The notes under the pieces were generated by a model. It saw only the letters and a program-made list of their open reading frames with translations, was not told the DNA's origin and ran no database searches. Below, one piece after another: positions 1 to 58,769 of a DNA stretch of 64,000 nucleotides (within the stretch, counting starts at the first letter, position 1; every line of letters starts with the position of its first letter). Source of the DNA: Escherichia phage VerenaGrendelmeier_Bas101. The DNA lies in the sequence record PQ850631.1; one strand, 5' to 3'. Made by a program: the position numbers and the translations under genes.

Positions 1-1
1 C

Positions 2-781: not shown

Positions 782-788
782 GGTCATT

Positions 789-1709
789 ATGACGATACCA
801 ATCAACACATTCCCTCTATCTGGACAAACTCCAGTCTTGCCTGCGGTGTATGCTAATGGCTTGGCAATTGTCTCAGAATTCACTTCTGATAAAAACTTGA
901 TTGTTCCACTGAGCCCGCCGCTTGCATCAGGGTATAACTCAGTAGGTCAATTCTTTATGATTGGCAATGATGGCGATTCGACCAGCAAGCCTAACCTGAC
1001 ATTGTCTGTGCCTAAGATGAACATCACAGACGTTCAAACTGGCTTGACTGCATCAACAATCACCATTGCTTTTGGTGAAGCAGTGATCATAGGTATGGAG
1101 TCTGGAGGGTCGAAAAACGCTGTCGCAGTCAAAGTTGTGAAAACCAGCGGCAACCAATACACGTTACCAGCGGCAACAGCTTCCGTTCTTGGTGGCGTCA
1201 AAATAGGCACCGGAATAAGCGTAGCAGGTGATGGTACAATCAGCGTCACCCAATACTCATTGCCGATTGCCTCAGCATCTACTTTAGGCGGCGTAAAGGT
1301 CGGTACAACTCTATCAATTGATGGGTCTGGTGTGCTTAATGCAGCAGCAAGTACCGTCCAGAATGCCACTAATAGCGTCAGCAATCCTCCAACAACTTTG
1401 GTCAATCTGGCAACCTTAAACCTTCCTGCAGGGAAATGGCTTGTAACAGCAAGTCAGTTGACTGTCGCGACAGCAGGCGTTCAAGCGAATACCGGAATTA
1501 CAGTCAAATTGTCAACAAGCAATTCAGATATTACGGATGATGCATTTGCCATGTCAGCTGGAATTCGGGCTGCAGGTCGCTTCGGCGGCAACATCCCAAC
1601 AAAAGTAATTACTCTTGCCGCGCCTGGTAATGTGTATTTAAACTATCAGTGCACCGACGCGTTGACATCTACCGTTTACGGACAGATCACCGCAATTAAG
1701 CTGAACTAA
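789..1709 (+). CDS. structural protein with tandem fiber-like repeats
   Basis: GAGG RBS 5 nt upstream of ATG. Internal ~32-aa repeats (PAATASVLGGVKIGTGISVAGDGTISV / PIASASTLGGVKVGTTLSIDGSGVL) resemble fiber-type repeats. Confidence 0.55.
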   Translation: MTIPINTFPLSGQTPVLPAVYANGLAIVSEFTSDKNLIVPLSPPLASGYNSVGQFFMIGNDGDSTSKPNLTLSVPKMNITDVQTGLTASTITIAFGEAVIIGMESGGSKNAVAVKVVKTSGNQYTLPAATASVLGGVKIGTGISVAGDGTISVTQYSLPIASASTLGGVKVGTTLSIDGSGVLNAAASTVQNATNSVSNPPTTLVNLATLNLPAGKWLVTASQLTVATAGVQANTGITVKLSTSNSDITDDAFAMSAGIRAAGRFGGNIPTKVITLAAPGNVYLNYQCTDALTSTVYGQITAIKLN

Positions 1710-1719
1710 AGAGGAAGTT

Positions 1720-1857
1720 ATGCAAAAGATTATTCAGTCACGTTATGTTAAAGTGCGAAATATTAATTGCAACTCTTTGCTTTCTTGGAAATGGGCTGTT
1801 TATGACTCGATGTTGATTGGCGTTTTAGTGGCAGGAGTGCTATTTAATATTCACTGA
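1720..1857 (+). CDS. small hydrophobic protein (45 aa)
   Basis: ATG preceded by GAGGAAG RBS; C-terminal hydrophobic stretch MLIGVLVAGVLF. Below the ORF-track size cut-off. Confidence 0.3.
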   Translation: MQKIIQSRYVKVRNINCNSLLSWKWAVYDSMLIGVLVAGVLFNIH

Positions 1858-1890
1858 ATTCATCGGCAAAGGATTGCCGCGAGTTTTATA

Positions 1891-2160
1891 CGTATAATGA
1901 CGTATCATCCGTATCAAGTAAGTTGTTGTTTTCAAAAGAATCTTACGGATGATACGCGTTGCCGCCGTACCATATAGGAATTCAAATAAATTAATTTAAA
2001 ATTATATATCTAATTTAATTTTATTTTTTTATAAACTCTTATATATGAAAAGTATCCGTATCATCCGTATCATCCGTAGCACACCAGTGATAGCGCGACT
2101 TATACACCGATACGGATAAAAATACGCCTCATTTTATCCGTATCATCCGTATCACACTAA
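1891..2160. repeat. iteron-like region: at least 8 copies of the 9-10-mer TCATCCGTA(TCA), both orientations, flanking an AT-rich tract (1981-2050)
   Basis: Copies at 1905-1916, 1943-1953 (rc), 2052-2078 (three tandem), 2109-2118 (rc), 2135-2154. Shares blocks with 54327-54615. Confidence 0.7.
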
Positions 2161-2211
2161 TAAAGGCGCGGCTATATCGGTTGTTATACATATTCAAACC
2201 ATAATTATTGT

Positions 2212-2240
2212 TTGCCTAAGTTTTTTTCATTAGATATAAT
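2212..2240 (+). promoter_or_regulatory. sigma70-like promoter TTGCCT-17-TATAAT for the structural operon
   Basis: -35 at 2212-2217, 17-bp spacer, -10 at 2235-2240, about 25 nt upstream of the 2264 start. Confidence 0.4.
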
Positions 2241-2263
2241 ACACAATACTTATTTGAGGGTGG

Positions 2264-3685
2264 ATGCGAATGCAAACGGCACGCGAAATTGACAAAAATG
2301 GATTCTTGACGATTATGGGTTGTCCAATTTCGTCATTTGGCATTTTTGATTATTCTGCTGGTCAAGTTGGTCTTGATGGTGATCCGAATCGCATCGTAAA
2401 AGTCTATCGCCCTGAGTCAGCGGTGAAAGACCCCGAAGCGATAGATTCATTCAAAAATATCCCTTTCATCGACAATCACGAAATGCTTTCTGGATTTGAA
2501 GGTGATGAGGATAACACGGCACCCGAAGAGTATGGTGTCGATGGCGTTCTAACTGGCAATGTTTATTATGACAAGCCATGGATGCGCGGCGACCTTAAAG
2601 TGTTCAGCCGTCGTCTTAAGAAGGCCATTGATTCTGGAAAGGTTGACTTGTCTTTGGGCTATGACTGTGAATTCATCATACAGTCTGGAGAGTTTGACGG
2701 GCAGCCGTATGAAGTGGTGCAGACAACTCTTCGCGGCAACCACATTGCTCTCGTGGACGTTGGTCGAGTACCAGGTGCACGGGTGCTGGATGGTCGTTGC
2801 TTTGACCATCTTTGTTTGACGACTGTAACACCATCCAACGAGGATTTAGACATGCCAAAACCGTTAAAAGGTAAAGCGCGTGATAATGCTGTTGAACAGC
2901 TGAAATCACTGATCCCTGCGCTCGAACAATTTCTGAATGAAGAGAGTGCTGAAGCTGCTCATCAGGACGAAGTTGAAGTGAAAGCAGAAGAGAAGGACTC
3001 AACCGAAAATCGTGAAGAAGTAATGGTTGATCCAGAAGTCAAGGCAGAAGCAGAAGAAACCCCAGAAGGTGAAGAGAAGTTTGAAGTTGAAACTGAATCT
3101 CACGCTGACGGCGAACTTCCGCAATTGATCAGCCAAATCGAAGCACTTATTGCAAAACTGAAAGGTGGCGCGGTAGGTGATGAAGAAGAAGTTGAAGCCG
3201 AAGTCAAAGACGAAGAAGAAGTTGAAGTCAAGGCTGAAGATGTATCACCTTGCGACAAAGCTGAAGATGTGGTTAGCGGCCTGCAAAACAGCAACGTAAA
3301 GGGGGCTTCGGTCGAAAAAGATGACAAACCGACAAAAGCGGCGAAAGCGTCGCCAGGTCCAGCAAAAGGGGAACACTCAATGGCATCTGATTCAGCAGTT
3401 GCTGCTTTCTACGCTGATTCTGCTCGTAAGAATAGCCTCTACCAGCGCCTGTCTAAAGTTGTTGGTGCCTTTGATCATGCAACTATGGACTCCAAGTCCG
3501 TAGCGAAATATGGCGCTAAAAAGTTAGGCTTGAAGTGCGTTGATGGTGCTGAGTTTGACGTGGTGGATAATTATCTGCGCGGCGTTGAGCACGGTCAAAA
3601 ACAGCGTGTAGTCGCAAAACAAAAGGCCGCTGCGGATTCTGCAGCAACTGACGAAGCATTTGAAGCTTGGTTGAAAGGGGAATAA
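2264..3685 (+). CDS. capsid maturation protease / scaffolding-like protein (DUF2213-like N-terminal domain, acidic repeat C-terminal half)
   Basis: N-terminal 200 aa resemble phage prohead protease-like domains. C-terminal half is highly acidic with tandem EEEVEAEVKDEEEVEVKAED repeats. An in-frame ATG at 2270 has better RBS spacing. Confidence 0.5.
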   Translation: MRMQTAREIDKNGFLTIMGCPISSFGIFDYSAGQVGLDGDPNRIVKVYRPESAVKDPEAIDSFKNIPFIDNHEMLSGFEGDEDNTAPEEYGVDGVLTGNVYYDKPWMRGDLKVFSRRLKKAIDSGKVDLSLGYDCEFIIQSGEFDGQPYEVVQTTLRGNHIALVDVGRVPGARVLDGRCFDHLCLTTVTPSNEDLDMPKPLKGKARDNAVEQLKSLIPALEQFLNEESAEAAHQDEVEVKAEEKDSTENREEVMVDPEVKAEAEETPEGEEKFEVETESHADGELPQLISQIEALIAKLKGGAVGDEEEVEAEVKDEEEVEVKAEDVSPCDKAEDVVSGLQNSNVKGASVEKDDKPTKAAKASPGPAKGEHSMASDSAVAAFYADSARKNSLYQRLSKVVGAFDHATMDSKSVAKYGAKKLGLKCVDGAEFDVVDNYLRGVEHGQKQRVVAKQKAAADSAATDEAFEAWLKGE

Positions 3686-3687
3686 AC

Positions 3688-4305
3688 ATGATTTTCCAAA
3701 CTAGTGTAGGCCGTCAATATACAACTGGCTTTCCTGGCGACATCGTTCGCGACGGCCCACAGCGTGGGAAGCCAGGCCGAATCGTTAGCGCCAACGACGG
3801 TGCAAACGTAAACGCCATCAGCCGTGTGTTTGGTTTTAAGGCTGACGTGTCATTAATGGGTACTGGCCAAACCAAAACCTTGGGCGCGCAGGACTTTGAA
3901 GTTGAACTGGGCGGCACCAATTACTATGGCATCCTTGGCAACAGCAAGCGTTACGCTCTGTATGGCAACTCTACTGGTCCTTTGGGTGCCAGCATGGTTC
4001 TGCCTCAATATAGCGAAGGCGAGTTCTATGATATGTGCACGGGCCTCGTAGTTGAAGTATTCAACCCAAGCACCAGTCCGCAGACGCTGAACTACGGCGA
4101 CCTGCTCGCTTATGTACCTAAAGGCATTTCCAGCGGTAACAACCCGAACAACTTGCCTATCGGTGCAATTATCGCCTATACTGGCTCACTGCCAACTGGC
4201 ATGGTTGCCATTCCAGGCGGTATCGTGATTGACCCGACTGCTATTGCCCTTTCCGGCCCAAGCGTCCAGTCTTCCACTTATACCATTGTACAATTGACTC
4301 GTTAA
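3688..4305 (+). CDS. head protein of unknown function (possible decoration/cement protein)
   Basis: AAGGGG RBS then ATG at 3688; lies between protease/scaffold and major capsid genes. Confidence 0.4.
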   Translation: MIFQTSVGRQYTTGFPGDIVRDGPQRGKPGRIVSANDGANVNAISRVFGFKADVSLMGTGQTKTLGAQDFEVELGGTNYYGILGNSKRYALYGNSTGPLGASMVLPQYSEGEFYDMCTGLVVEVFNPSTSPQTLNYGDLLAYVPKGISSGNNPNNLPIGAIIAYTGSLPTGMVAIPGGIVIDPTAIALSGPSVQSSTYTIVQLTR

Positions 4306-7974: not shown

Positions 7975-9513
7975 GTGATCAGTCAATCTCGTTATATTAA
8001 AATTGTATCAGGGGTCGGAGCAGGCGCGGCTGTTGCAGTTCGCAAACTGTCGCTTCGCATCATGACTTCCAATACAGTCCTGCCGCCGGGCATTGTAGCA
8101 GAATTTTCAACTGCTGATGCCGTTGGATCATATTTCGGTTTTTCTTCCGAAGAATACAAGCGTGCAGCATTGTATTTTGGATTCATCAGCAAGCAAATCA
8201 ACTCGCCTGATTCAATCAGCTTTTCTCGCGTTGTATCCACGGCGATTCCTGCAATGGTTATCGGCGATACTGAGCCTAAAACGCTTGCTACTTTTCAGGC
8301 ATTCACTGGCGCTATCTTAAGCATCACTTATGACGGCACAGACTACCTGACTGACGCCATCAACCTTTCAGCGGCAACAAGCCTTGCCAACGTAGCGGAA
8401 CTTTTGGAAACGGCAATCAACACCAAGTTTGCAGCCGAAGGTGGCACGTCGGTGCCTGCACTTGCTGATGCAGAAGTGTATTGGAATGCCAACACCCAGC
8501 AGTTCACTTTGGAAGCCGCTACGTCGACCGCTGGTGCTGGAAACCTTTCGATTAACGTCACAGGTCAACCGACAGACCCATCTCAGGCGCTTGGTTGGAC
8601 GACTACTGGCACCGTTACGGTTGCTGGCCAGGGTGTAGCAAGTCCGGTAGAAGCCATCGCGGCATCTGTGGAGATTTCCAACAACTTTGGCTCATTCCTT
8701 TTCGCTGGAGCAGACCGAACGCTGGAAGAAATCACAGCCGTTGCAGCTTGGACTCACTCGCAGAACAATATGTACATGTATCTGTTCTCGACTGCATTCG
8801 CCAACATTGGCTCATACTATACCGCACTGAAAGGTTACTCAGGCGTTGGTATGATGATCCGTGCAACCAACCTTGCGAATGATTACATCGACCAGGCACC
8901 TGCTGAAATTCTCGCGGCGACAAACTATAATACTGTAAATGCAACTCAAAACTACATGTACTATCAGTTTGACACGCGAAATGTTACTGTATCGACTGAT
9001 TCACGCGCAGATACTGCTGATCAAAACCGTGCAAACTATATCGGCGCTACTCAGCAAGCTGGTCAAACGCTCGCGTTCTTCCAGCGTGGTGTTCTGATGG
9101 GCGGGTCTACCGCAGCAGTTGACATGAACACTTATGCCAACGAGATGTGGCTTAAATCTGCTATTACTTCTCAGCTGTTCAGCATGTTCTTGAATCTTGG
9201 TCGCGTGCCTGCAAACGAAGAAGGCAAAGCGACTGTCCAAGCCATGATTCAAGTTGCTGTTGACAATGCGAAGGTTAACGGCACCATCTCTGTCGGTAAG
9301 GCGCTGACGGAAATTCAGAAACAGTACATCACGCAAACCTCCGGTGACAACACTGCTTGGCGGCAGGTTGAGACTATCGGTTATTGGTTGACTGTCGATT
9401 TTGACACTGAAACCACTTCCGATAACCGCACCGAATACTATGCAACATACACGCTAATCTACTCTAAAGATGATGCTGTGCGTCGCGTTGAAGGTCGTGA
9501 CGTTCTTATTTAA
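7975..9513 (+). CDS. tail sheath-like protein (DUF3383-like)
   Basis: 512 aa, immediately upstream of tube-like gene; AAGAGGA RBS then GTG. Confidence 0.5.
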   Translation: MISQSRYIKIVSGVGAGAAVAVRKLSLRIMTSNTVLPPGIVAEFSTADAVGSYFGFSSEEYKRAALYFGFISKQINSPDSISFSRVVSTAIPAMVIGDTEPKTLATFQAFTGAILSITYDGTDYLTDAINLSAATSLANVAELLETAINTKFAAEGGTSVPALADAEVYWNANTQQFTLEAATSTAGAGNLSINVTGQPTDPSQALGWTTTGTVTVAGQGVASPVEAIAASVEISNNFGSFLFAGADRTLEEITAVAAWTHSQNNMYMYLFSTAFANIGSYYTALKGYSGVGMMIRATNLANDYIDQAPAEILAATNYNTVNATQNYMYYQFDTRNVTVSTDSRADTADQNRANYIGATQQAGQTLAFFQRGVLMGGSTAAVDMNTYANEMWLKSAITSQLFSMFLNLGRVPANEEGKATVQAMIQVAVDNAKVNGTISVGKALTEIQKQYITQTSGDNTAWRQVETIGYWLTVDFDTETTSDNRTEYYATYTLIYSKDDAVRRVEGRDVLI

Positions 9514-9560
9514 ATAATTGCCGCCGTAACTGGCGGCCATCTCTCTGAGAGGAATCTGTA

Positions 9561-10028
9561 ATGATTAACGTTTCCGGTTTTGGCGCTTCGATTCGTTTGG
9601 TAGCATCAAACACTTTCCCTAATGGTGTGACCCTTTCTGATTTTGCAGATGATGCTGATCCGATTGACGCGCCGGACCTGCAAATCTCTGAGGCTGCAAT
9701 GGGCCTTAACGGTGACTTAGTAGTGTGGAACCGTGCAAACCCGCTTGAAGTAGGTGTGAACATCATCCCTACTTCTGAAAGTGATGTTAACTTGGACGTT
9801 CTTGCAGCTGCAAACCGCGTAGGCAAGCGCAAGAACTCCGCAAAAGACGTGATCACACTTGTGCTGACTTATCCTTCTGGAATGGTTATCACGCTAAACA
9901 AAGGCACCTTGACAACTGGTTCAGTAATTCCTGGCATCCAGTCTCAAGGTCGTGTGAAAACACGTCAATATCGCTTCAAGTTTGAGAACGTAGTCAAAAC
10001 TGGCGTGAGCAACCAAGAGATTTTATAA
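9561..10028 (+). CDS. tail tube-like protein
   Basis: 155 aa directly after sheath-like gene; N-terminus MINVSGFGASIRLVA; paralog of 10979-11476. Confidence 0.5.
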   Translation: MINVSGFGASIRLVASNTFPNGVTLSDFADDADPIDAPDLQISEAAMGLNGDLVVWNRANPLEVGVNIIPTSESDVNLDVLAAANRVGKRKNSAKDVITLVLTYPSGMVITLNKGTLTTGSVIPGIQSQGRVKTRQYRFKFENVVKTGVSNQEIL

Positions 10029-10357
10029 TGTATCAAATACCACTTGACAGCGTACCTAACCAGAATATCAGCTTTAACGTTGACGGTGCATATTGGCAGT
10101 TGCACATTTTTGCCGCTATCGAGCATATGTGTGCCGACGTATATCGCAATGGTGAACTTTTGATTCAAGGGGTGCGCTGTTTTGGTGGTATCCCAATGGT
10201 GCCTTATAAGTATCTCATGATTGGGTACGGTAATTTCATTTTCGACAGCGTACCTGATTATGAAAGGTTTAACTCAGGCGGCTGTAATCTATATTACATG
10301 TCAGAATCTGAGTTGGCTGAATTCCAGGCCACTGCTGAAGCGGAGTTTGCAATTTGA
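10028..10357 (+). CDS. hypothetical protein
   Basis: ATG overlaps upstream stop (TAATG). Confidence 0.4.
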   Translation: MYQIPLDSVPNQNISFNVDGAYWQLHIFAAIEHMCADVYRNGELLIQGVRCFGGIPMVPYKYLMIGYGNFIFDSVPDYERFNSGGCNLYYMSESELAEFQATAEAEFAI

Positions 10358-10710
10358 CAACTCTAACCATTGAAGTGAACGAAAATAATGACCTTTTTCT
10401 ACCTGATGGAAGAAACTTAAATATTCTTTCAGGAGAAAAAGCGATGGTGCAAGTAATCAAGGCCGCGCATCAGATGCGACTTGGTGAAGACTTGTACGAT
10501 ATAGAAAACGGGGTCGATTATTTGGGGACCGTTTTCAAGTCGCCCGTTGACGAAGACGGTGCGCGAAAGTCGATTGCAGATGCTATTCTGAAGAAAGCAG
10601 ACGTTGCCGGAATCGACTCATTGACTGTCACCATCCAAAACGGTATCCTTGGATTCACTGCAGAAGTGGTGACTATTTATGGCGAACGTATAAAGGTGAG
10701 TAATCAATAA
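10354..10710 (+). CDS. hypothetical protein
   Basis: TTG start overlapping upstream stop; start uncertain. Confidence 0.35.
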   Translation: MTTLTIEVNENNDLFLPDGRNLNILSGEKAMVQVIKAAHQMRLGEDLYDIENGVDYLGTVFKSPVDEDGARKSIADAILKKADVAGIDSLTVTIQNGILGFTAEVVTIYGERIKVSNQ

Positions 10711-10976
10711 TGGCACAAGTAATTCATTTTGCAAATGGCGTCATGAAATTTGGCGAAAAATTTGAAGACGCATCAGAGCTGTTTAATAAGAAGGTTGAGC
10801 CTGTTACAGAAATCAAAGAGCAGGTCGAAGAAAAGTCCGTTGAACAAAAACTCGATTTTGATTCCATGAGCGTTTCAGAATTGAAGTCTTATGCCAAAGA
10901 AAATGGCATAGACATCAAGGGTCTTTCTTATAAGGATGAAATTCTTGCTGCAGTTAAATCTGCATCTGCGGAGTAA
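10710..10976 (+). CDS. hypothetical protein
   Basis: AAGGTGAG RBS then ATG at 10710. Confidence 0.4.
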   Translation: MAQVIHFANGVMKFGEKFEDASELFNKKVEPVTEIKEQVEEKSVEQKLDFDSMSVSELKSYAKENGIDIKGLSYKDEILAAVKSASAE

Positions 10977-10978
10977 AC

Positions 10979-11476
10979 ATGGTCAATATTAGTGGATTTG
11001 GCACAAGCATTAGAATTGTCGCTCTTCAATCTTTTCCTGTTGGGCTGAATATCAGTTCTTTGTCTGATGACCAGGATTCGCTAATTATTGAGGAAGTTGA
11101 ATCAGTAGGTTATCAACTTACTTACGACGGCGGCATTTGCATATACGACAAAGCCGCCGTCGTTCGCGTATCCATTGCGGTCATTCCAAACACTGAAGAT
11201 GACATAAATCTTAAGCTTTTATTATCTGCCCGTAAAGGTGGATTCAAGTGGTTGCCAATTCAGGATGTGACATCAATGCTTATTACATATCCTGACGGTG
11301 GAAGGGTGGCATTCTCTAACGGAACAATAATCAGCGGTCCGCTTGGTGACTCCATAGAGCAATCAGGCCGTCGCAAGACAAACCGATACACATTTGTGTT
11401 TGCCAGCTACGGCGGCGCGCAGAGCACGTCTCAAATTGCCAAGGGCGTGGTGCAGAGCATATTGGGGTCCATTTAA
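10979..11476 (+). CDS. tail tube-like protein, paralog
   Basis: N-terminus MVNISGFGTSIRIVALQSFP parallels MINVSGFGASIRLVASNTFP of 9561-10028; similarity continues along the protein. Confidence 0.45.
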   Translation: MVNISGFGTSIRIVALQSFPVGLNISSLSDDQDSLIIEEVESVGYQLTYDGGICIYDKAAVVRVSIAVIPNTEDDINLKLLLSARKGGFKWLPIQDVTSMLITYPDGGRVAFSNGTIISGPLGDSIEQSGRRKTNRYTFVFASYGGAQSTSQIAKGVVQSILGSI

Positions 11477-12009
11477 TGGCTATCGATTTACTGTCATATA
11501 GTCTATCAAACAGAAGCTTCACGATAAAGAGCTTCAACCTTGGAGAAGTATCCACGCTTGGATGGGCCATAGTCAACGTCAAAATAAGACTCCAAGCGAA
11601 GATATTCAAAAACCAAAGGGAAGACGGCAGCTATATTGTCGATGGCAGAGTAAAGATGCCGCGAATACTCACTGTCACCGTGATAGCGCAAACGAAAAGT
11701 GCATCAGATGCAATAGCTAAAATGCTGCAAAACAGGTCGACTATATACACAATTAATTCCCGTGGTCTAATATTCGAACGTATGGTGCTGCAAAATAACA
11801 ACTTCAGCCAGGACGCTGACAATATAACGTCTCAGCCCATACAATTGGTCTTCCATGAGATATTAACACAGCAGGATGTGTCTATTCAAACAGCGCAGGC
11901 AGGCGACTCAACAGTAATAGAGCGCGGCATTGCATACATAAAAGAAACTTCTGCCAGCGTCACTGGCGTCGCTACAAAGGTGATGAATGGTATCAAGGGG
12001 ATGTTCTGA
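11476..12009 (+). CDS. hypothetical tail protein
   Basis: ATG overlapping upstream stop. Confidence 0.4.
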   Translation: MAIDLLSYSLSNRSFTIKSFNLGEVSTLGWAIVNVKIRLQAKIFKNQREDGSYIVDGRVKMPRILTVTVIAQTKSASDAIAKMLQNRSTIYTINSRGLIFERMVLQNNNFSQDADNITSQPIQLVFHEILTQQDVSIQTAQAGDSTVIERGIAYIKETSASVTGVATKVMNGIKGMF

Positions 12010-53135: not shown

Positions 53136-53551
53136 TACAGCGTTACGATGTTGATTATTGCACGCAGCACGCTTGCACTTGTGAAGTTGTAAAGGATGAT
53201 GAAGGCGGCTATGTTGAATATGAGGACTATGAATCACTACTCAAGCTTAATGAGTCGCTAACAAAAGAGATTGAGCAATACCGCGAGCGCATCAAAGTCG
53301 CTGAAGATATTATCAAGCTTTTTAGCGAGGCTGTTGAGAAATACAAGGAGCGCAACGTACCGATTAAGGAGGAAGCGTGGACCGTGTGGCGTGGTGGCGA
53401 TAATCCGGTGCCTGGTGAGATTGTTGAATACAAGCTGCGCAATGGAGGTGATAAAGTTCTGTCGAGACTTTCTGATCATCTTCACTGGGGTCATATAGGC
53501 GCGTTAAAGGGCAGCGACATCATTGCTTATCGGGTCGTTAAGGAGGGGTGA
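53132..53551 (+). CDS. hypothetical protein (C-terminal domain shared with 51469-51978)
   Basis: ATGA overlap; Cys-rich N-terminus CTQHACTC. Confidence 0.45.
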   Translation: MIQRYDVDYCTQHACTCEVVKDDEGGYVEYEDYESLLKLNESLTKEIEQYRERIKVAEDIIKLFSEAVEKYKERNVPIKEEAWTVWRGGDNPVPGEIVEYKLRNGGDKVLSRLSDHLHWGHIGALKGSDIIAYRVVKEG

Positions 53552-54000
53552 TGGGCAAACGGCTTATCGCCGCTGGTTGGGCCATACCGAAGTGGGGCCA
53601 TCGTGCGCATTACTTTGACGAAGGAGAAGGGCAAAGCCTTTGTGGTCGCGCAACATATTTCGGTGATGAGCGCGTCAGCGGCGATTATATCGATTCGCTT
53701 TTAGGTAAAGGTGATTGCAAGAAGTGCCAAAATATATTAAGAGATATTCTTACGCAAAAAGGATTGCTTGAGCTTGATGAATCGGAAGAAGTAATTGATC
53801 TTAAGCTGGAAGCCAATCACCTTATTAATATGTTCAAGAATTATTACTTAACTAATATGCGCTCAAAGATGCGTAAGGAAGTAATAGAAGAGGTACTCAC
53901 TTACAATCCTTTAAGGATGAATAAAACTAAATTGAAGAAGTTTAATATAATGATAAGGAAGGAATTTAAAAGGCTTGGAGTGAAGAATTTTATATTTTAA
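53551..54000 (+). CDS. hypothetical protein
   Basis: AGGAGG RBS; CxxC...CxxC-like cysteines; last gene before terminator. Confidence 0.4.
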   Translation: MGKRLIAAGWAIPKWGHRAHYFDEGEGQSLCGRATYFGDERVSGDYIDSLLGKGDCKKCQNILRDILTQKGLLELDESEEVIDLKLEANHLINMFKNYYLTNMRSKMRKEVIEEVLTYNPLRMNKTKLKKFNIMIRKEFKRLGVKNFIF

Positions 54001-54016
54001 TAGTGATTAATGTTAA

Positions 54017-54038
54017 GAGGGCCGATTGGCCCTTTTTG
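54017..54038 (+). terminator. rho-independent terminator ending the early block
   Basis: GGGCCGATTGGCCC followed by TTTTT. Confidence 0.65.
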
Positions 54039-54039
54039 T

Positions 54040-54290
54040 TTGCCTGTGGTATGTGAGGATTTATTATCGGATAAAGCGATTGATTTGTGCAAATCTATTA
54101 GAGGGTCATGGGTAGTGAGGATTGTGACGTGAATTTTGTGTCTTGAATATGTGTGCGAATCTGGAAGATTATTGTACTGTGGTGCTGTGGGATTGTAGAG
54201 GGAATCACTAGGAATTGGAGCGTGTACCGTGGTGTGTGGTCCTGTAGGCTGCGCCGTCTATGGGATTGTCGCTTGAAATTAAAAAGGAGA
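54040..54290. repeat. non-coding GT-rich tract with GGGATTGT / GAGGATTGT repeats
   Basis: Strong G+T skew on plus strand; no ORF; repeats near 54118, 54192, 54262. Confidence 0.5.
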
Positions 54291-54326
54291 TATAGTTAGC
54301 TGGCTAACCTTACGCATAGAATTTAA

Positions 54327-54615
54327 GCGTATAATGACGTAAGATTTGGACCTATCCGTAGTTCACTCCACACACTTCTATGGTGCGCCGCGACTGGGTT
54401 CAGTGGTACATCTTACGGATGATACGGATGATACGCGTCGCCGCTATACTTTATACAACTTTGAAAAAAACAATTAACTCCATTTTGAATTAATTTAAAT
54501 TAATTTTTTTCTACATCCTCATACTTATACTAAACTTATATTTATACGTATTATCCGTAAGATATAAGTAAAAACAAAGACTTGCGGCAATACGGATGAT
54601 ACGTCACGATACGCT
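54327..54615. repeat. second iteron-like region homologous to 1891-2160
   Basis: Shared blocks GCGTATAATGACGTA, ATCTTACGGATGATACG...GCCGC, AT-rich AATTAATTTAAA tract, TATCCGTA copies. Confidence 0.65.
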
Positions 54616-54778
54616 TCAACCAGCCAGCAGCGGCTAAGTCATTGATTTGCATAACAAGCGACGAAAGGGATGGATTTCTTTTATACGTATCAAACAGTAC
54701 ACCACGCACCACGGTCCGTTATCCATCCAGCACTATGATTTGTGTACGTTTATAGCCATAATGAACATCAATCTGCAC

Positions 54779-54807
54779 TTGAATATAATGTCCATCCATT
54801 GTATAAT
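54779..54807 (+). promoter_or_regulatory. sigma70-like promoter TTGAAT-17-TATAAT
   Basis: -35 at 54779-54784, -10 at 54802-54807, upstream of the TerS-like ORF. Confidence 0.35.
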
Positions 54808-54817
54808 TCACACTATT

Positions 54818-56298
54818 AATTTGCACTATGGGATTTTGCACTATGAGTCAAGATTATGTAGCGATGCCTGAAGACTTTGAAGACCCGCGATTCGCAGAGC
54901 ACAATCAGGCTTTATTCGATGAGTTCATTGACCTTGTTATTCAGGGCCATGACATGCGCGCAGCTTTTGCACTAGTATTTGGAATGGAAGTTGCAACGGA
55001 TAACTACACTGGCCAGCGAATCCTTTGCACGCAACGCAATCCATACTACAAGATGCGCTTCAAAAAGCGTATGGAAGAGATGCCACTCAAGGATTTGTGG
55101 AGCGTAAAAGGTGCAATTCACAATTTGGTCAAGCTTGTGCGTGATCCAGAAGTCGCGGCGTCAGCCAAGCTTAATGCTATTCGTGAACTGAATATCATCT
55201 ATGGCATCACGATGATTGATGAAAACGGCAATAGTAAAATGGGCCGTTCTATGGACGATTTCTACAAGGATTTTGGAGAGGCGGCCAAAGAAGGCGAGCA
55301 ATTCTCCCGCCACTAGCCAATTTGCACTATAAAACGGCCCTAGAACACATTGTCTCCACTTCTAGGGCCATCGGTAATACGACGGGGAAGGTTGCAACCG
55401 TAAACGCGTTAGAAAGTGTATTATTATAAGTCATCTTTTAGTCACCTTACGTAACAATTTACGACCTTCAACCGTCCAATCGAACGACTCCACCAGCAGA
55501 TTCGCACTATAACCTAAGATGATGCGCCCTTTCTCGTTATCGACCCGCCAACAAGTCTCGAATAGCATTCGATTTGCACTATTAACTATCGCCGCAACGC
55601 GCGTTGGGTAAACGCAATTTGCACTATGGTCGTAAAGGGATAAGGTGCGACCACTTCCGATGGACAATGTAGCGATGAGAATAAGCGTATTCATAAGCCA
55701 CCAATTTGCACTATGAAAAGCGACCCCGAAGGGCCGCCATTCGATTAGATAATCTGGAATGTGTAGGACTTGTTGCCGAACTCAAAGTTCAAGCGTCCAG
55801 CTTCTTTAAGCTTCATGCGGAAGCGAATGTGCTTACTATCCGGTAAGCCCAGCGCGGCGAACGCCACGCGGACCGATTTGAACTCGCCTACACCCTCGAC
55901 CATAACGCCGTTACGCGTGAGACGCTTTTGCGCCACTTCCTTGTTATCCCAACTTTTTGCAATACCTTCGCTATTCGAACGGCGATGGGAAGGAGTTCCA
56001 TTTTGCACTACGCAATTTGCACTATCGTTTAGGCCGCTTTTAACGAAGGCTTCATACTCTTCGTCGGTCATCGCGTCGAGTTCTTCCTGGGTCGGCTCGG
56101 CCTTTTTAACGACCGCACGCGCCTTATGCGTTTTTACATCGCTGGACACTTCCTCGCGCGGCTTCGCGTCGGGAATGGGCGATTCGTTGGACGGCTCATC
56201 GAGCGCGTTTAAGGACTCGATTAACGCGATTACGCGAGTCTCGGCGGTACGGCGGTCCGCAAATTTCTTAATCGGCTTCGAACCGGAATTTGCATTAT
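54818..56298 (+). repeat. strand-specific array of about 10 copies of the 12-mer AATTTGCACTAT (and one-mismatch variants)
   Basis: Copies at 54818, 54833, 55319, 55499, 55571, 55616, 55703, 55999, 56014, 56287, all in the same orientation, irregular spacing, crossing coding and non-coding DNA. Confidence 0.75.
54828..55316 (+). CDS. terminase small subunit-like DNA-binding protein (orphan; start ambiguous 54828/54843)
   Basis: HTH-like GHDMRAAFALVFG followed by LKDLWSVKGAIHNLVKLVRDPEVAASAKLNAIRELNIIYGIT; no large terminase gene adjacent. Confidence 0.35.
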   Translation: MGFCTMSQDYVAMPEDFEDPRFAEHNQALFDEFIDLVIQGHDMRAAFALVFGMEVATDNYTGQRILCTQRNPYYKMRFKKRMEEMPLKDLWSVKGAIHNLVKLVRDPEVAASAKLNAIRELNIIYGITMIDENGNSKMGRSMDDFYKDFGEAAKEGEQFSRH

Positions 56299-56371
56299 AA
56301 AATGCAACGAGGTCGGCGGTCTTAGTTGCGATAACGTCGCCGCTAGTCGAGAAACGATTTAAGCTAACCAT
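55745..56371 (-). CDS. hypothetical protein (208 aa)
   Basis: Long ORF with codon usage distinct from the structural genes (AAG, CGC, TCG-rich); contains embedded 12-mer copies. Confidence 0.4.
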   Translation of the reverse strand: MVSLNRFSTSGDVIATKTADLVAFYNANSGSKPIKKFADRRTAETRVIALIESLNALDEPSNESPIPDAKPREEVSSDVKTHKARAVVKKAEPTQEELDAMTDEEYEAFVKSGLNDSANCVVQNGTPSHRRSNSEGIAKSWDNKEVAQKRLTRNGVMVEGVGEFKSVRVAFAALGLPDSKHIRFRMKLKEAGRLNFEFGNKSYTFQII

Positions 56372-56451
56372 AATGAACTCCTATTTGTTAGGGCGCTAGG
56401 CGCGAAAGAATTTTATTAAAGCGCCGCGCGCGACGCTCTAAAAATCCTCTC

Positions 56452-56766
56452 TTACTCTTCGTCGTCTTCGATTAATTCGAGGGCGAAGGCGTAAGCTTTG
56501 CTATCGTAATTAACTAAAACGGCGAGTTCGAACTCGTTAATAAACGCCGTTTTACCGCATAAATTTAATTCCGCATCGACTTCGAAGAATCCGTTTTCGT
56601 CGCGCTCTAAGCGAGAAGCAGCGAGTTGCTCGATTACCGTCGCGTCGTTAATTTCTTCGCCTAAGCGAACGCCGGAGAATTTCGCGAGAATTTCGCCGTA
56701 AGTAAGCGTAACGCCCTGGACTTCGGCGGTTGCGTTTTCGAGGGTAAAGCGGGTAACGATAGCCAT
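56452..56766 (-). CDS. small acidic protein (104 aa)
   Basis: Strongly acidic, ends ...LIEDDEE. Confidence 0.45.
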   Translation of the reverse strand: MAIVTRFTLENATAEVQGVTLTYGEILAKFSGVRLGEEINDATVIEQLAASRLERDENGFFEVDAELNLCGKTAFINEFELAVLVNYDSKAYAFALELIEDDEE

Positions 56767-56906
56767 AATAAACTCCTAGTTGGGAGAGGCGTTAACGACC
56801 TATTCGTTAACTCATCCCGTCCCGATATGAGTACATTATAATATAGTGTAGAAAAAAGTAAAGCACTTTTTCGATAAAAATGCGATAAATTATTTTATCT
56901 TTTTTC

Positions 56907-56934
56907 TTTACTTCTTCGTACACTCGCGTATACT
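56907..56934 (+). promoter_or_regulatory. sigma70-like promoter TTTACT-16-TATACT with conserved GTACACT spacer and TTGTTTATATCGAGA leader
   Basis: Near-identical architecture to 57305-57333. Confidence 0.45.
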
Positions 56935-56988
56935 TGTTTATATCGAGACGGGCGATGGCCCTTCCTTCTACTAGCATCGGGAGTTTTA

Positions 56989-57293
56989 TTATGACCACTT
57001 TAATCTCTTCTATCCTTACTTACGACGAAGACCGTTTAACCGTTCGCTCTCTTATCGCCGCCGTTAACGCGGAACTAGAATCCACCATTATTAAGGTCCG
57101 CGCGGTCGCTTTCGTCGGCCTTTCCTTCGACGATATTAAGTACGCCGAACGTAGCGCCATCCGCTTCGCGAAGACCGACGACGAAGCCGTTACCCTTATC
57201 GAGACGGTTACGCCGCGCGGCGAAGCGTTAATTATCGTCGAGTATATCGACGTAGAAGGCGATAAGGCTTATAAATATTTTATTGCAGAATAA
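56989..57293 (+). CDS. small acidic protein (101 aa)
   Basis: ATG at 56989; acidic. Confidence 0.45.
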
Positions 57294-57304
57294 CGAAAAA
57301 GTGC

Positions 57305-57333
57305 TTTACTTCTTCGTACACTAAGACTATAAT
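57305..57333 (+). promoter_or_regulatory. sigma70-like promoter TTTACT-17-TATAAT, paralog of 56907-56934
   Basis: Shares CTTTACTTCTTCGTACACT and the GTTTTATATCGAGAG leader. Confidence 0.45.
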
Positions 57334-57400
57334 GTTTTATATCGAGAGGGGATGAGGTAGCGAATAGGTCGCTACCCGCCCGACCAACTAGGAGATTATT

Positions 57401-57691
57401 ATGATTACTTTAGCCGCTATCCGTTCCGCTCGCGTCGAGACTTCCGAAAACTCTAACGTATTTGGCGAAACCTTAGAGAGCGTTTATCTCTCTAACGTAG
57501 ACGCAACTATCGAACCTATTTATGAGCCGATCAACTTCCTCGACCTTTACAAGTATCGCGACGAGGACATCGTATCATCCCGCGTAACGATTAACGGCTT
57601 CGTCTATACGATTACCGAAATCGGCGGCGAATATCTCGCTGTACCGCAACTCGGCGGCGAAGTAACTTATTTTAAAATTGTCTCCTTATAA
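57401..57691 (+). CDS. small acidic protein (96 aa)
   Basis: GGAG RBS, ATG at 57401. Confidence 0.45.
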   Translation: MITLAAIRSARVETSENSNVFGETLESVYLSNVDATIEPIYEPINFLDLYKYRDEDIVSSRVTINGFVYTITEIGGEYLAVPQLGGEVTYFKIVSL

Positions 57692-57710
57692 TATCCTTCC
57701 GTTACTAATA

Positions 57711-57736
57711 GGCCGCGCTTAGTCGCGGCTTTTCTT
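57711..57736 (+). terminator. rho-independent terminator
   Basis: GCCGCG...CGCGGC stem followed by TTTTCTT. Confidence 0.6.
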
Positions 57737-57854
57737 CGTCCCTATCTCGATGCGCTTCTCCGCGAAAACTCCTTTATCCTTCCCTTCGTCGTCGCATAAT
57801 CTTCGTCGAGATGCGCCTTAGTTCGCATAACAGGTATTACGTTAAATGGAGAAC

Positions 57855-57931
57855 ATCGCGTAAGTCCTTGTTTTATATAGACACCTATATCGGACCGTTA
57901 GGGCGGGTCGCGTAAGTCGTTGTTTTATAAA
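57855..57931 (+). repeat. direct repeat pair TCGCGTAAGTC(C/G)TTGTTTTATA
   Basis: Copies at 57855-57879 and 57907-57931; shares TTGTTTTATA with the leaders of the two promoters upstream. Confidence 0.55.
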
Positions 57932-58055
57932 GGCGCAAAACTTTCCCTTCGTTCCGAACTAAAACGAGGAATATGCCGACCCTTCGCCCGAAAATAGTAC
58001 GCATGCGAAATCACATGCATCTCGAATAATCCCCACCGATATTATCCTACACGCA

Positions 58056-58118
58056 ATCATTCGCTTTCGAATCATTATGCTTCATATTATTATGCGTCGA
58101 ATCATTCGCTTTCGAATT
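58056..58118 (+). repeat. direct repeat pair AATCATTCGCTTTCGAAT
   Basis: Copies at 58056-58073 and 58101-58118, each with a TTCGAA palindrome. Confidence 0.55.
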
Positions 58119-58205
58119 GTAACGCTGGAAACTGTAACGGCGATTGATTATTGCGTTCGTGTGGTTTTTAGGGCATGGGTCTTTTGGTGCGTTTTGGTGC
58201 TTGAT

Positions 58206-58318
58206 GGAATTTGCGGTACACTAATCAAAATACGACACATTTGGTCCACTAACTTTTCAAAGAAAAAGTCCTAGACAGTACCGTACTATTTTGTACCCAC
58301 AGGAATTTGCAGTACACT
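58206..58318 (+). repeat. direct repeat pair GGAATTTGC(G/A)GTACACT
   Basis: Copies at 58206-58222 and 58302-58318; combines the AATTTGC core with the GTACACT promoter-spacer motif. Confidence 0.5.
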
Positions 58319-58388
58319 CCTGCGCGGCAGGCAAAATAAAGGGCCGCCCTAAGCGACCCACGATTCATGGTTAAATCAGCAACACCCA

Positions 58389-58769
58389 CTATTCACTCTT
58401 ATGGGCATCACCAAATCCATCAGCAATCTGGCTGATCAACGACTCAATGGACACAGTTTTACCAATTGATCGAGCGGTTATGGCGAGCATATTATCAATC
58501 AAACCACGATTGGCTTCACATGTTCCAGGCTTTAATTCATCTTTAGGACCACCAAAAAGCTGGTCGCGCAGACTTTCAAGAGAACGCTCAATATTTTCCA
58601 ACTTCTCTTCTAAATCGGATTGGCGACGTAAAACCCACGTCAAGTCACGGTTGCCAACTTCCAATCCATCAGAATAGCAAGGTGGAGCGTCAATTTTGAT
58701 GCTGGAACCAAAAGCAGTGCCGCTGCCTTTAGTATAAGTATGGCTCATAGAATCATTTTTATTTGACAT
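58389..58769 (-). CDS. hypothetical protein (126 aa)
   Basis: Start set at internal ATG with AAAGG RBS; the longer ORF-track N-terminus reads through a terminator hairpin. Confidence 0.4.
   Translation of the reverse strand: MSNKNDSMSHTYTKGSGTAFGSSIKIDAPPCYSDGLEVGNRDLTWVLRRQSDLEEKLENIERSLESLRDQLFGGPKDELKPGTCEANRGLIDNMLAITARSIGKTVSIESLISQIADGFGDAHKSE

What the first reader, a model, noticed from the sequence alone, without database searches (positions are those of the whole stretch)
57700..58388. 680-bp non-coding region with three pairs of direct repeats
No convincing ORF, but three direct-repeat pairs: TCGCGTAAGTC(C/G)TTGTTTTATA (57855, 57907), AATCATTCGCTTTCGAAT (58056, 58101) and GGAATTTGC(G/A)GTACACT (58206, 58302). 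The first reuses the leader motif of the two island promoters; the third fuses the AATTTGC core of the 12-mer array with the GTACACT promoter-spacer motif. This may encode small RNAs or be a cluster of regulator sites linking the island to the array.
Basis: seen in the sequence. Interest (0 to 1): 0.55.

Follow-up and report, generated by a model that had tools for sequence, protein, structure and literature searches.

The report
Right end of phage terminal repeat
This conserved non-coding stretch is where the 3.7-kb repeat at both ends of a Wifcevirus (E. coli phage) genome stops, so it holds the physical right end of the packaged DNA and most likely the signal for cutting it, not small-RNA genes.

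Summary
The three repeat pairs are real and the 697-bp gap (57692-58388) has no conserved ORF. The window is a Wifcevirus. Record ends of four relatives (Mansfield by PhageTerm, WFH, Ro157lw, SP13) map to one point, T58184|T58185, inside the finding. All starts map to 54482. The direct terminal repeat (DTR) is therefore 54482-58184.

R1 and R2 lie in the repeated subterminal leader and R3 lies just outside the repeat. The gap sits between convergent terminators. Its diversity (pi 0.043) is 2-7 times lower than third-codon sites of flanking genes (0.09-0.31).

The 38 bp outside the cut (TGGTGCG...R3a GTACACT) aligns without gaps, in register with the independently mapped DTR end of Serratia Myosmarviruses. 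The match is 24/38, with AGTGTAC at -38 and CGCACCA at -7..-1 in both genera. R3 is therefore best read as part of a terminus-cutting signal. R2 is a dispensable 45-bp tandem duplication, because Bas100 has one unit. R1 is conserved but unexplained.

I found no support for small RNAs, an origin or DnaA boxes. The layout parallels T5 Repeat Region 3 (iss).

In passing: about 1.9 kb abutting this end is almost free of CA/TG dinucleotides in both genera. This is unexplained.

The parts
57710..57740 (+). Intrinsic terminator ending the outward-pointing early genes (100-aa and 96-aa). It keeps transcription out of the terminal leader.
   Evidence: Stem-loop AGGCCGCG-CTTAGT-CGCGGCTT followed by TTCTTCG. 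Annotated as a terminator in Mansfield, WFC and WFH. Diversity pi 0.004, the lowest in the region.
57856..57880 (+). R1a, the first copy of the 25-nt direct repeat. It lies inside the DTR, in the CA/TG-poor part.
   Evidence: Conserved in 19 genomes apart from one C/G position. pi 0.026. No counterpart in Myosmarvirus.
57908..57932 (+). R1b, the second copy, 52 bp (about 5 helical turns) after R1a.
   Evidence: pi 0.008. Each copy carries a 1-mismatch IHF-like match on the minus strand, which is weak.
58039..58126 (+). R2, a 45-bp tandem duplication (58039-58081 and 58084-58126). Each unit holds the palindrome ATTCG-N4-CGAAT.
   Evidence: Phage Bas100 lacks exactly one unit, 58055-58099. The palindrome is broken by uncompensated substitutions in several relatives. 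pi 0.057-0.079, the least conserved part.
58127..58184 (+). Last 58 bp of the DTR, with a G+T-rich top strand. It contains GGGCATGGG, 5 nt from the end.
   Evidence: pi 0.021. Over 58125-58205 the composition is G27 T33 A11 C10. CCCWTGCCC is also found just inside the Myosmarvirus end.
58184..58185 (.). Right boundary of the direct terminal repeat, which is the physical right end of virion DNA (cut between T58184 and T58185).
   Evidence: The last bases of the WFH, Ro157lw and SP13 records and the PhageTerm DTR end of Mansfield (3673) all map to 58184. All record starts map to 54482. WFC is an outlier at 58265.
58185..58224 (+). Conserved module flanking the cut, outside the DTR: TGGTGCG (58185-58191) through R3a (58206-58222), whose core is GTACACTAA (58216-58224).
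   Evidence: It aligns without gaps, anchored on the cut, to Serratia phage SMP/MyoSmar at 24/38 identity. The background is 9.45 +/- 2.76. Offset 0 is the best of 201 offsets, and 24 is the maximum over 131,044 pairs of 38-mers. A five-genome alignment agrees. There are no indels here in 19 Wifcevirus genomes.
58277..58318 (+). Distal part of the GTAC cluster: the palindrome AGTACCGTACT (58277-58287), GTAC at 58293, and R3b (58302-58318).
   Evidence: Five GTAC within 100 bp (58216-58315) is the densest cluster in a window where GTAC is under-represented (138 found, 247 expected). P is about 3e-6 per 100-bp stretch. R3b pi is 0.019. Myosmarvirus also has a second AGTGTAC further out.
58341..58359 (-). 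Intrinsic terminator of the leftward operon (126-aa gene ... tail fibre), convergent with the first terminator.
   Evidence: GGGTCGCTTAGGGCGGCCC followed by TTTATTTTGC. Annotated in WFC and WFH. Mansfield carries an expansion of a 7-bp unit here.

Best explanation
**What is shown**

The gap is the junction between the 3.7-kb direct terminal repeat (DTR, window 54482-58184) and unique DNA of a Wifcevirus. In replicating concatemers this junction is where the packaging nuclease makes the cut that creates the right end of the virion chromosome, after T58184. The gap is shielded from transcription by two convergent terminators. It evolves several times more slowly than synonymous sites next to it.

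**What is inferred**

- The roughly 40 bp just outside the repeat (TGGTGCG ... R3a GTACACTAA) is the sequence read by the terminase complex to place this cut. R3b is a second copy of the element. The GGGCATGGG box lies on the inner side.
- The 12-mer array AATTTGCACTAT in the left half of the DTR, of which R3 is a 10/12 variant in the same orientation, may belong to the same recognition system.
- R1 and R2 sit in the repeated subterminal leader. R2 is a dispensable slippage duplication.
- R1 is a conserved pair of sites spaced about five helical turns apart, for an unidentified DNA-binding or bending factor.
For: - **End position.** The DTR is annotated by PhageTerm in phage Mansfield. Four of five relatives that define ends agree on 58184, and all agree on 54482. 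A terminal repeat of about 3.7 kb is reported for WFC and WFH (PMC6563267).
- **Insulation.** Convergent terminators flank the gap.
- **Constraint.** pi is 0.043, against 0.089-0.315 at third codon positions of ten flanking genes. The neighbouring 96-aa protein is only 66% identical in WFC, while the gap is 95% identical.
- **Cross-genus register.** Myosmarvirus has the same DTR architecture when the Wifcevirus map is flipped. Its independently mapped end falls at the same CGCACCA| with AGTGTAC at -38, a 24/38 match and z about 5.
- **Local signal.** The GTAC cluster is unique in the window.
- **Packaging gene in the DTR.** The DTR encodes a genuine small terminase (PDB 7UXE, E = 7e-34).
- **R3 and the array.** R3 matches the 12-mer family, whose eight leftmost copies are nearly invariant.
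- **R2 is dispensable.** Bas100 carries a single R2 unit.
Against: - No reads or virion DNA of this isolate were examined. The end is transferred from relatives.
- WFC's record ends 81 bp further on, and the MTx boundary is 17 nt from MyoSmar's. The precision is therefore tens of bases at worst.
- The other boundary (54482) shows no matching motif in Wifcevirus and no cross-genus block. One recognition element cannot explain both cuts.
- The homologous TerS of phage E217 did not bind DNA in vitro (PMC9611059).
- Within-genus divergence is only 3-5%, so conservation cannot resolve single motifs.
- GTACACT also lies in two early-promoter spacers. That would fit a regulator equally well.
Confidence: 0.6

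Rival explanations
1. A T5-like DNA-entry control region (an 'injection stop signal'). The DTR would enter first, and entry would pause at the repeat-rich untranslated stretch at its inner boundary while DTR genes are expressed.
For: The layout is the same as in T5: plus-strand genes, a terminator, an untranslated repeat region, the end of the long terminal repeat, more non-coding DNA, then convergent genes (T5 RefSeq annotation). T5 Repeat Region 3 lies mostly in the terminal repeat, overruns into unique DNA, and is more conserved than the ORFs of the repeat (bioRxiv 10.1101/866236). The DTR carries three near-consensus sigma-70 promoters driving small acidic proteins. Wifceviruses resist the tested restriction systems without a known protection mechanism (PMC11990801).
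Against: There are no DnaA boxes, even allowing one mismatch. There is no sequence similarity to any phage outside Wifcevirus. Two-step entry has never been reported for these phages. This idea does not explain why R3 is in register with the cut in two genera. It is compatible with the main explanation rather than exclusive of it.
Confidence: 0.15
2. Operator sites for a phage regulator of the early promoters. A protein recognising GTACACT would bind the P2 and P3 spacers and the two R3 sites.
For: GTACACT occurs four times on the plus strand of the 64-kb window, all within 56918-58312. Two copies lie in promoter spacers and two in R3. The GTAC cluster supports a local binding region. Some relatives carry an extra 69-aa ORF nearby that RefSeq names 'transcriptional regulator'.
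Against: Nothing is transcribed from the R3 region: there is no promoter, and terminators lie on both sides. In Myosmarvirus the motif sits at the DTR boundaries, not in the promoter spacers. The fixed 38-nt distance to the cut is not expected for an operator.
Confidence: 0.1
3. The region encodes one or more small RNAs.
For: The plus strand of 57740-58030 folds somewhat better than shuffles, z = -2.3. Weak promoter-like sites (9/12) lie on the minus strand inside each R2 unit, and a minus-strand hairpin with a T-run lies at 58020-57999.
Against: The other three folds have z of -0.3, +0.9 and -0.7. The hairpin and the long-range pairing are disrupted without compensation in most relatives. There is no Rfam hit. 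R2 is variable and half of it is absent in Bas100.
Confidence: 0.05
4. An origin of replication, or functionless relic duplications.
For: Direct repeats and an A+T-rich stretch could recall iterons. R2 behaves like a neutral slippage product.
Against: Each repeat has only two copies. There are no DnaA boxes. There is no local skew switch. Diversity is 2-7 times lower than at synonymous sites, which argues against filler.
Confidence: 0.05

Closest known systems
Untranslated Repeat Region 3 / injection stop signal (iss) at the inner end of the phage T5 left terminal repeat
   Same: It occupies the same position: after the last plus-strand gene of the terminal repeat and its terminator, mostly inside the repeat and overrunning into unique DNA, facing convergent genes. 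It is rich in direct repeats and palindromes. It is more conserved than the ORFs of the repeat. It has elements spaced 52 bp apart.
   Different: There is no sequence similarity and there are no DnaA boxes. This region is 0.7 kb against 1.2 kb in T5, and the repeat is 3.7 kb against 10 kb. Two-step injection is unknown here. The function of the T5 region is itself still hypothetical.
DTR boundary of Myosmarvirus (Serratia phages MyoSmar, MTx, SMP)
   Same: It is homologous at the cut: TTAGTGTAC-N24-CGCACCA| followed by CCCWTGCCC, with a second AGTGTAC further out. The DTR architecture is the same: a C+A-rich end, a CA/TG-free early island with GCTTTACTT...TATAAT promoters and CGAATAGGTCG leader hairpins, then TerS near the A+T-rich end.
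   Different: Myosmarvirus has only about 250 bp between this end and the first promoter, and no R1 or R2. Wifcevirus has inserted two outward-pointing genes, a terminator and the R1/R2 leader. The AGTGTAC copies are 34 bp apart, against 96 bp here.
Terminase recognition sites next to the cut in cos and short-DTR phages (lambda cosQ/cosN/cosB; sequences flanking the T7 concatemer junction). Recalled from my own knowledge and not tested here.
   Same: Short conserved elements lie within tens of bp of a sequence-specific terminase cut. Repeated sites in one orientation lie near the terminase genes.
   Different: No protein binding has been shown here. The two DTR boundaries do not share a motif in Wifcevirus. 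The homologous E217 TerS showed no DNA binding in vitro.

Membership tests
Boundary of a long direct terminal repeat (fixed-end, T5-type packaging class of PhageTerm) | The sequence left of the boundary is present at both ends of virion DNA. | tested here: met
   The records of WFC, WFH, SP13 and Ro157lw carry the 3.5-3.9 kb segment at both ends. The Mansfield DTR is annotated by PhageTerm. This was shown for relatives that are 91-97% identical, not for this isolate's own reads.
Boundary of a long direct terminal repeat (fixed-end, T5-type packaging class of PhageTerm) | Ends are fixed and sequence-specific, and are the same in independent isolates. | tested here: met
   Four of five right ends map to 58184 and five of five left ends map to 54482. 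The WFC right end is 81 bp further on.
Terminase recognition or cut signal | Conserved sequence in fixed register with the cut across related phages. | tested here: met
   24/38 ungapped identity, anchored on independently mapped ends of two genera. Offset 0 is the best.
Terminase recognition or cut signal | Bound or cleaved by the terminase, and required for packaging. | not testable with these tools
   This needs EMSA or footprinting and packaging assays. The related E217 TerS did not bind DNA in vitro.
T5 Repeat Region 3 / injection stop signal | An untranslated, repeat-rich region at the inner end of the terminal repeat that overruns into unique DNA and is more conserved than the ORFs of the repeat. 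| tested here: met
.
T5 Repeat Region 3 / injection stop signal | Paired DnaA boxes inside inverted repeats. | tested here: not met
   No match to TTWTNCACA with up to one mismatch in 57600-58450.
T5 Repeat Region 3 / injection stop signal | DNA entry pauses here (two-step transfer). | not testable with these tools
   No experimental data were found for Wifcevirus.
Small regulatory RNA gene | Its own promoter and terminator on one strand, with a conserved structure or a known family. | tested here: not met
Iteron-type replication origin | Three or more iterons, initiator or DnaA boxes, and an A+T-rich unwinding element. | tested here: not met
   Each repeat has only two copies. There are no DnaA boxes.

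The most novel reading that the evidence does not exclude
The finding may be the outer part of a conserved 'terminal module' shared by Wifcevirus and Myosmarvirus. The module would consist of a sequence-specific end (AGTGTAC-N24-CGCACCA|CCCWTGCCC), followed by about 2 kb of DNA from which the CA:TG base step has been almost eliminated, in genes, promoters and non-coding leader alike.

This stretch carries the strongest early promoters and small acidic proteins. It could be a 'stealth' leading segment built to escape a host or phage DNA-targeting activity during the first moments of infection. It could also underlie the unexplained broad resistance of these phages to restriction.
Probability: 0.2. 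Interest if true: 0.75.

Novelty: new member of a known kind. Interest (0 to 1): 0.42.

Why it matters
It corrects the reading of this locus. The region is a genome end, not an RNA or regulatory cluster. That matters for annotating and re-opening Wifcevirus assemblies, most of which are deposited as arbitrarily opened circles.

It also gives a concrete candidate cut signal of about 40 bp for a group of long-DTR myophages whose packaging recognition is unknown, even though the small terminase structure has been solved. Wifceviruses and their Pbunavirus relatives are of interest for therapy. Knowing the end signal helps genome engineering, packaging of synthetic genomes, and prediction of transduction risk.

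The adjoining CA/TG-free island, if it is functional, would be a new kind of sequence-level adaptation of first-expressed phage DNA.

Tried and rejected
- **RNA families and tRNAs.** Rfam at a permissive threshold and a tRNA scan found nothing.
- **ORFs.** ORF conservation across 19 genomes showed no conserved ORF.
- **RNA folding.** Folding of both strands gave no convincing signal.
- **Host-factor sites.** The DnaA-box scan found none. The IHF scan found only a 1-mismatch hit in each R1 copy.
- **Left and right ends compared.** Local alignment of the two terminus flanks scored below the shuffle mean. CATGGGT and the 21-mer at the end do not recur.
- **Chi sites.** Counts are at chance level.
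- **Boundary B across genera.** There is no conserved block.
- **Non-coding DNA compared with MyoSmar.** The Wifcevirus leader and the MyoSmar internal non-coding DNA show no significant similarity.
- **Pbunavirus PS44 as a third genus.** Its duplicated 573 bp is an internal or assembly overlap, not a DTR, so it was uninformative.
- **Searches for more distant carriers.** Blastn in 'distant' mode, two IMG/VR pattern scans and one metagenome scan returned only Wifcevirus and MyoSmar. One further IMG/VR scan was wasted on a miscounted spacer.
- **DTR proteins.** PHROGs, Pfam and NCBIfam gave no functions. A PDB search with the 208-aa protein gave nothing significant. The PDB search with TerS was positive.
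- **Literature.** A search for CA/TG depletion in phages found nothing relevant. The E217 terminase paper is not held.

Full report
**1. The observation**

The sequence shows all three repeat pairs.

- **R1** (TCGCGTAAGTCSTTGTTTTATA) lies at 57856 and 57908. It extends to 25 nt at 23/25 identity. No shuffle of 100 contained a match.
- **R2** (AATCATTCGCTTTCGAAT) is exact at 58055 and 58100. It is the core of a 45-bp tandem duplication, 58039-58081 and 58084-58126.
- **R3** (GGAATTTGCRGTACACT) lies at 58206 and 58302, 16/17 identical.

The gap between the two convergent stop codons is 57692-58388, 697 bp. Twelve ORFs of 25-65 aa can be drawn in it. Eleven are broken in at least one of 19 relatives that differ by only 3-5%. 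Rfam at a permissive threshold and a tRNA scan find nothing.

**2. What the window is**

Megablast places the window in Wifcevirus, a genus of E. coli myophages that includes ECML-117, WFC, WFH and Mansfield. There are 28 GenBank relatives at 91-97% identity. A sensitive blastn of the gap finds it only in those 28 records.

The genus is reported to have a terminal repeat of about 3.7 kb (PMC6563267). Phage Mansfield carries a PhageTerm-predicted direct terminal repeat (DTR) at 1-3673.

**3. The gap contains the physical genome end**

Mansfield position 3673 aligns to window 58184. The last bases of the records of SP13, Ro157lw and WFH, which include both repeat copies, also map to 58184 (...GGGCATGGGTCTTT|TGGTGCG...). 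All five record starts map to 54482. WFC alone ends 81 bp further on, at 58265.

The DTR is therefore 54482-58184, 3703 bp.

- R1 and R2 lie inside it, so they are present twice in virion DNA.
- A 10-mer doublet, TTTTGGTGCG, straddles the end in this isolate only.
- R3a and R3b lie 22 and 118 bp outside the DTR.

A terminator at 57710-57731 (+) and another at 58359-58341 (-) close the two convergent transcription units on either side.

**4. The gap is constrained**

I aligned 18 genomes over 53.5-60 kb. Nucleotide diversity in the finding region is 0.043. Third codon positions of the ten flanking genes give 0.089-0.315.

- The most conserved pieces are the (+) terminator (0.004), R1b (0.008), R3b (0.019), the last 58 bp of the DTR (0.021) and the stretch between the R3 copies (0.023).
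- R2 (0.057-0.079) and 57933-58038 (0.057) are the least conserved.
- Phage Bas100 lacks exactly one 45-bp R2 unit.
- The ATTCG-N4-CGAAT palindrome in R2 is broken without compensation in several phages.

R2 therefore looks like a dispensable slippage duplication.

**5. Cross-genus evidence that R3 belongs to the end signal**

TerS (54843-55316) and the 208-aa protein have homologues in Pbunavirus and in Serratia Myosmarviruses. MyoSmar and MTx have PhageTerm DTRs of 3559 and 3566 bp.

When the Wifcevirus DTR is flipped, the two genera share an architecture:

- a C+A-rich end;
- an early island with GCTTTACTT...TATAAT promoters and leader hairpins carrying the 11-mer CGAATAGGTCG;
- TerS pointing inward from an A+T-rich end.

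The MyoSmar left end corresponds to the Wifcevirus right end. I anchored both sequences on the independently determined cuts. The 38 nt outside the repeat then align without gaps:

- Wifcevirus: AGTGTACCGCAAATTCCATCAAGCACCAAAACGCACCA|AAAGACCCATGCCC
- SMP/MyoSmar: AGTGTACGTGCCAATCCATTTTGTGTGAAATCGCACCA|GCCCTTGCCCAGAC

Identity is 24/38. All 38-mer pairs between the two 400-nt segments average 9.45 +/- 2.76, and their maximum is 24. Offset 0 is the best of 201 offsets. A MAFFT alignment with four Myosmarviruses keeps the same blocks: TTAGTGTAC, TCCAT, AAA-CGCACCA and CCCWTGCCC.

AGTGTAC is the reverse complement of the GTACACT core of R3a (58216-58222). CGCACCA is the reverse complement of TGGTGCG (58185-58191). 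Both genera have a second AGTGTAC further out, which is R3b in this window.

In the window, five GTAC tetramers fall within 58216-58315. This is the densest cluster in a genome where GTAC is under-represented.

In MyoSmar and MTx an AGTGTACGC also lies 15-29 nt before the other boundary. Wifcevirus has no such motif at 54482. No cross-genus block exists there.

**6. Relation to the 12-mer array and the promoters**

R3 reads AATTTGCAGTAC in most genomes. That is a 10/12 match to AATTTGCACTAT. This 12-mer occurs about ten times, always on the plus strand, between 54818 and 56298, around and after the TerS gene. Its eight leftmost copies are nearly invariant.

The GTACACT heptamer also lies in the spacers of promoters P2 and P3.

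By contrast, R1 shares only the 10-mer TGTTTTATAT with one promoter leader, and that 10-mer occurs at chance frequency.

The TerS assignment is solid: it matches PDB 7UXE, the E217 small terminase, at E = 7e-34. However, that protein showed no appreciable DNA binding in vitro (PMC9611059). Which protein reads these sites remains open.

**7. Mechanism**

Shown:

- The gap is the junction between the DTR and unique DNA.
- It contains the virion right end.
- It is insulated from transcription and is under purifying selection.

Inferred, at about 0.55-0.6:

- The outer 40 bp (TGGTGCG ... GTACACTAA) and the inner GGGCATGGG box form the signal that positions the terminase cut at this boundary of the concatemer.
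- R3b is an auxiliary copy.
- R1, spaced 52 bp or about five helical turns, is a pair of sites for an unidentified architectural or regulatory factor. It is specific to Wifcevirus, because Myosmarvirus has no counterpart.

Packaging direction, and which end enters the cell first, cannot be decided from sequence.

**8. Rivals**

- **A T5-like entry-pause region.** This fits the layout closely. The T5 RefSeq annotation shows genes, a terminator at 9275-9296, iss at 9140-10149, the end of the terminal repeat at 10219, and a convergent gene at 10936. The description of Repeat Region 3 agrees. However, the defining DnaA boxes are absent, there is no homology, and there are no entry data. This idea may coexist with the main explanation.
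- **An operator role for GTACACT.** This is possible, but it does not explain the fixed register with the cut, and it is not seen in Myosmarvirus promoters.
- **Small RNAs.** These lack promoters, conserved structure and family matches.
- **An origin.** This lacks iteron multiplicity and DnaA boxes.

**9. Known or new**

The Wifcevirus DTR and its boundary are already in the databases and the literature. The repeat anatomy of the junction, the cross-genus cut-site module and the assignment of R3 to it appear not to have been described, in the papers I could search. I file it as a new member of a known kind: a DTR-boundary cis region, closest in layout to T5 Repeat Region 3.

**10. The most striking thing seen on the way**

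From about 56150 to 58000, which includes the left 300 bp of the finding, the dinucleotides CA and TG are almost absent.

- There are 12-20 per 500 bp, against 70.9 +/- 11.6 for the window as a whole.
- Observed/expected ratios are 0.29 for CA and 0.29 for TG. CG rises to 2.16 and TA to 1.25.
- The non-coding stretch 57692-58000 has 12, where 44 are expected. The stretch 58001-58388 is normal at 55 against 55.
- Both strands and both coding orientations are affected. The proteins encoded there lack His, Cys, Trp and internal Met, and Gln is rare.
- The remaining CA and TG sit in start codons, promoter boxes and ribosome-binding regions. Even the -35 boxes read TTTACT.
- The same kind of island, unrelated in sequence, abuts the homologous DTR end in MyoSmar and SMP. 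It is present in all Wifcevirus contigs examined.
- T5 shows only a mild CpG excess in its terminal repeat.

I have no tested explanation. BASEL reports that wifceviruses resist the tested restriction systems without a known protection mechanism, which may or may not be related.

Noticed in passing
window 56150-58000; also L031 (MyoSmar) about 150-1950 and L028 (SMP) about 10000-11700: An island of about 1.9 kb is almost free of CA/TG dinucleotides (observed/expected 0.29; CG 2.16; TA 1.25). It covers genes on both strands, promoters and non-coding DNA, and it ends about 185 bp from the DTR end. The encoded proteins lack His, Cys, Trp and internal Met, and Gln is rare. An analogous island with unrelated sequence abuts the homologous DTR end in Myosmarvirus. 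T5 shows only a mild CpG excess. The cause is unknown.
   Followed up: partly
window 56870-56780 (-), 56900-56990 (+), 57298-57400 (+); the 11-mer at 56796 (-) and 57361 (+); L028 10722: There are three paralogous early promoter-leader cassettes (GTGCTTTACTT ... TACACT ... TATAAT). Two leaders form hairpins around the 11-mer CGAATAGGTCG. The same 11-mer, with different stem sequences, occurs once in every Myosmarvirus DTR examined. This suggests a conserved 5'-leader element.
   Followed up: partly
window 54818-56298: About ten copies of the 12-mer AATTTGCACTAT occur, all on the plus strand, around and after the TerS gene and inside genes of both orientations. The eight leftmost copies are nearly invariant in 18 genomes. 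R3 is a 10/12 variant in the same orientation. This is a candidate polar recognition array.
   Followed up: partly
window 54354-54603 and 1532-2154; 54547-54613 against 1891-1956: Clusters of ATCCGTA/TACGGATGA motifs flank the left DTR boundary and recur about 11.5 kb away (going rightwards round the circular map), in an intergenic region upstream of the head protease gene. These include 9-bp tandem repeats. A 67-bp inverted similarity of 76-79% links the two places.
   Followed up: no
between window 57681 and 57686 (L025 3978-4187): ECML-117, Eco4M-7, SP13, Ro157lw and FEC19 carry an extra segment of about 231 bp with a 69-aa ORF after the 96-aa gene. RefSeq names it 'transcriptional regulator'. 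The window and most other relatives lack it.
   Followed up: partly
window 53500-54481: The unique DNA just left of the DTR is hypervariable or poorly alignable among wifceviruses (pi 0.21-0.46 with many gaps). Conservation starts abruptly at the DTR boundary, 54482. The top strand of 54000-54300 is G+T-rich.
   Followed up: no
window 56452-56766: The 104-aa acidic gene downstream of promoter P1 exists as divergent or replaced alleles among relatives (pi about 0.23 at all codon positions, with gaps in 30% of genomes). All alleles seen remain CA/TG-poor.
   Followed up: no
window 55490-55497 (-); L031 2106, 2164, 2338 (+): One Chi site lies in the Wifcevirus DTR, oriented to be read by RecBCD entering from the left end. 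Three Chi sites in one orientation lie inside the MyoSmar DTR, next to its island. Counts in the window are at chance level. The annotators of phage WR01 call the first island gene 'Gam-like'.
   Followed up: partly
window 58350-58360 (L001 about 3840-3880): Mansfield has an expansion of a 7-bp unit (CGACCCA, about five copies) inside the minus-strand terminator region. SP13 and Bas99 have one extra unit.
   Followed up: no
window 58265: The WFC GenBank record ends its terminal repeat 81 bp beyond the point shared by WFH, Ro157lw, SP13 and Mansfield. This is probably a less precise end call.
   Followed up: partly
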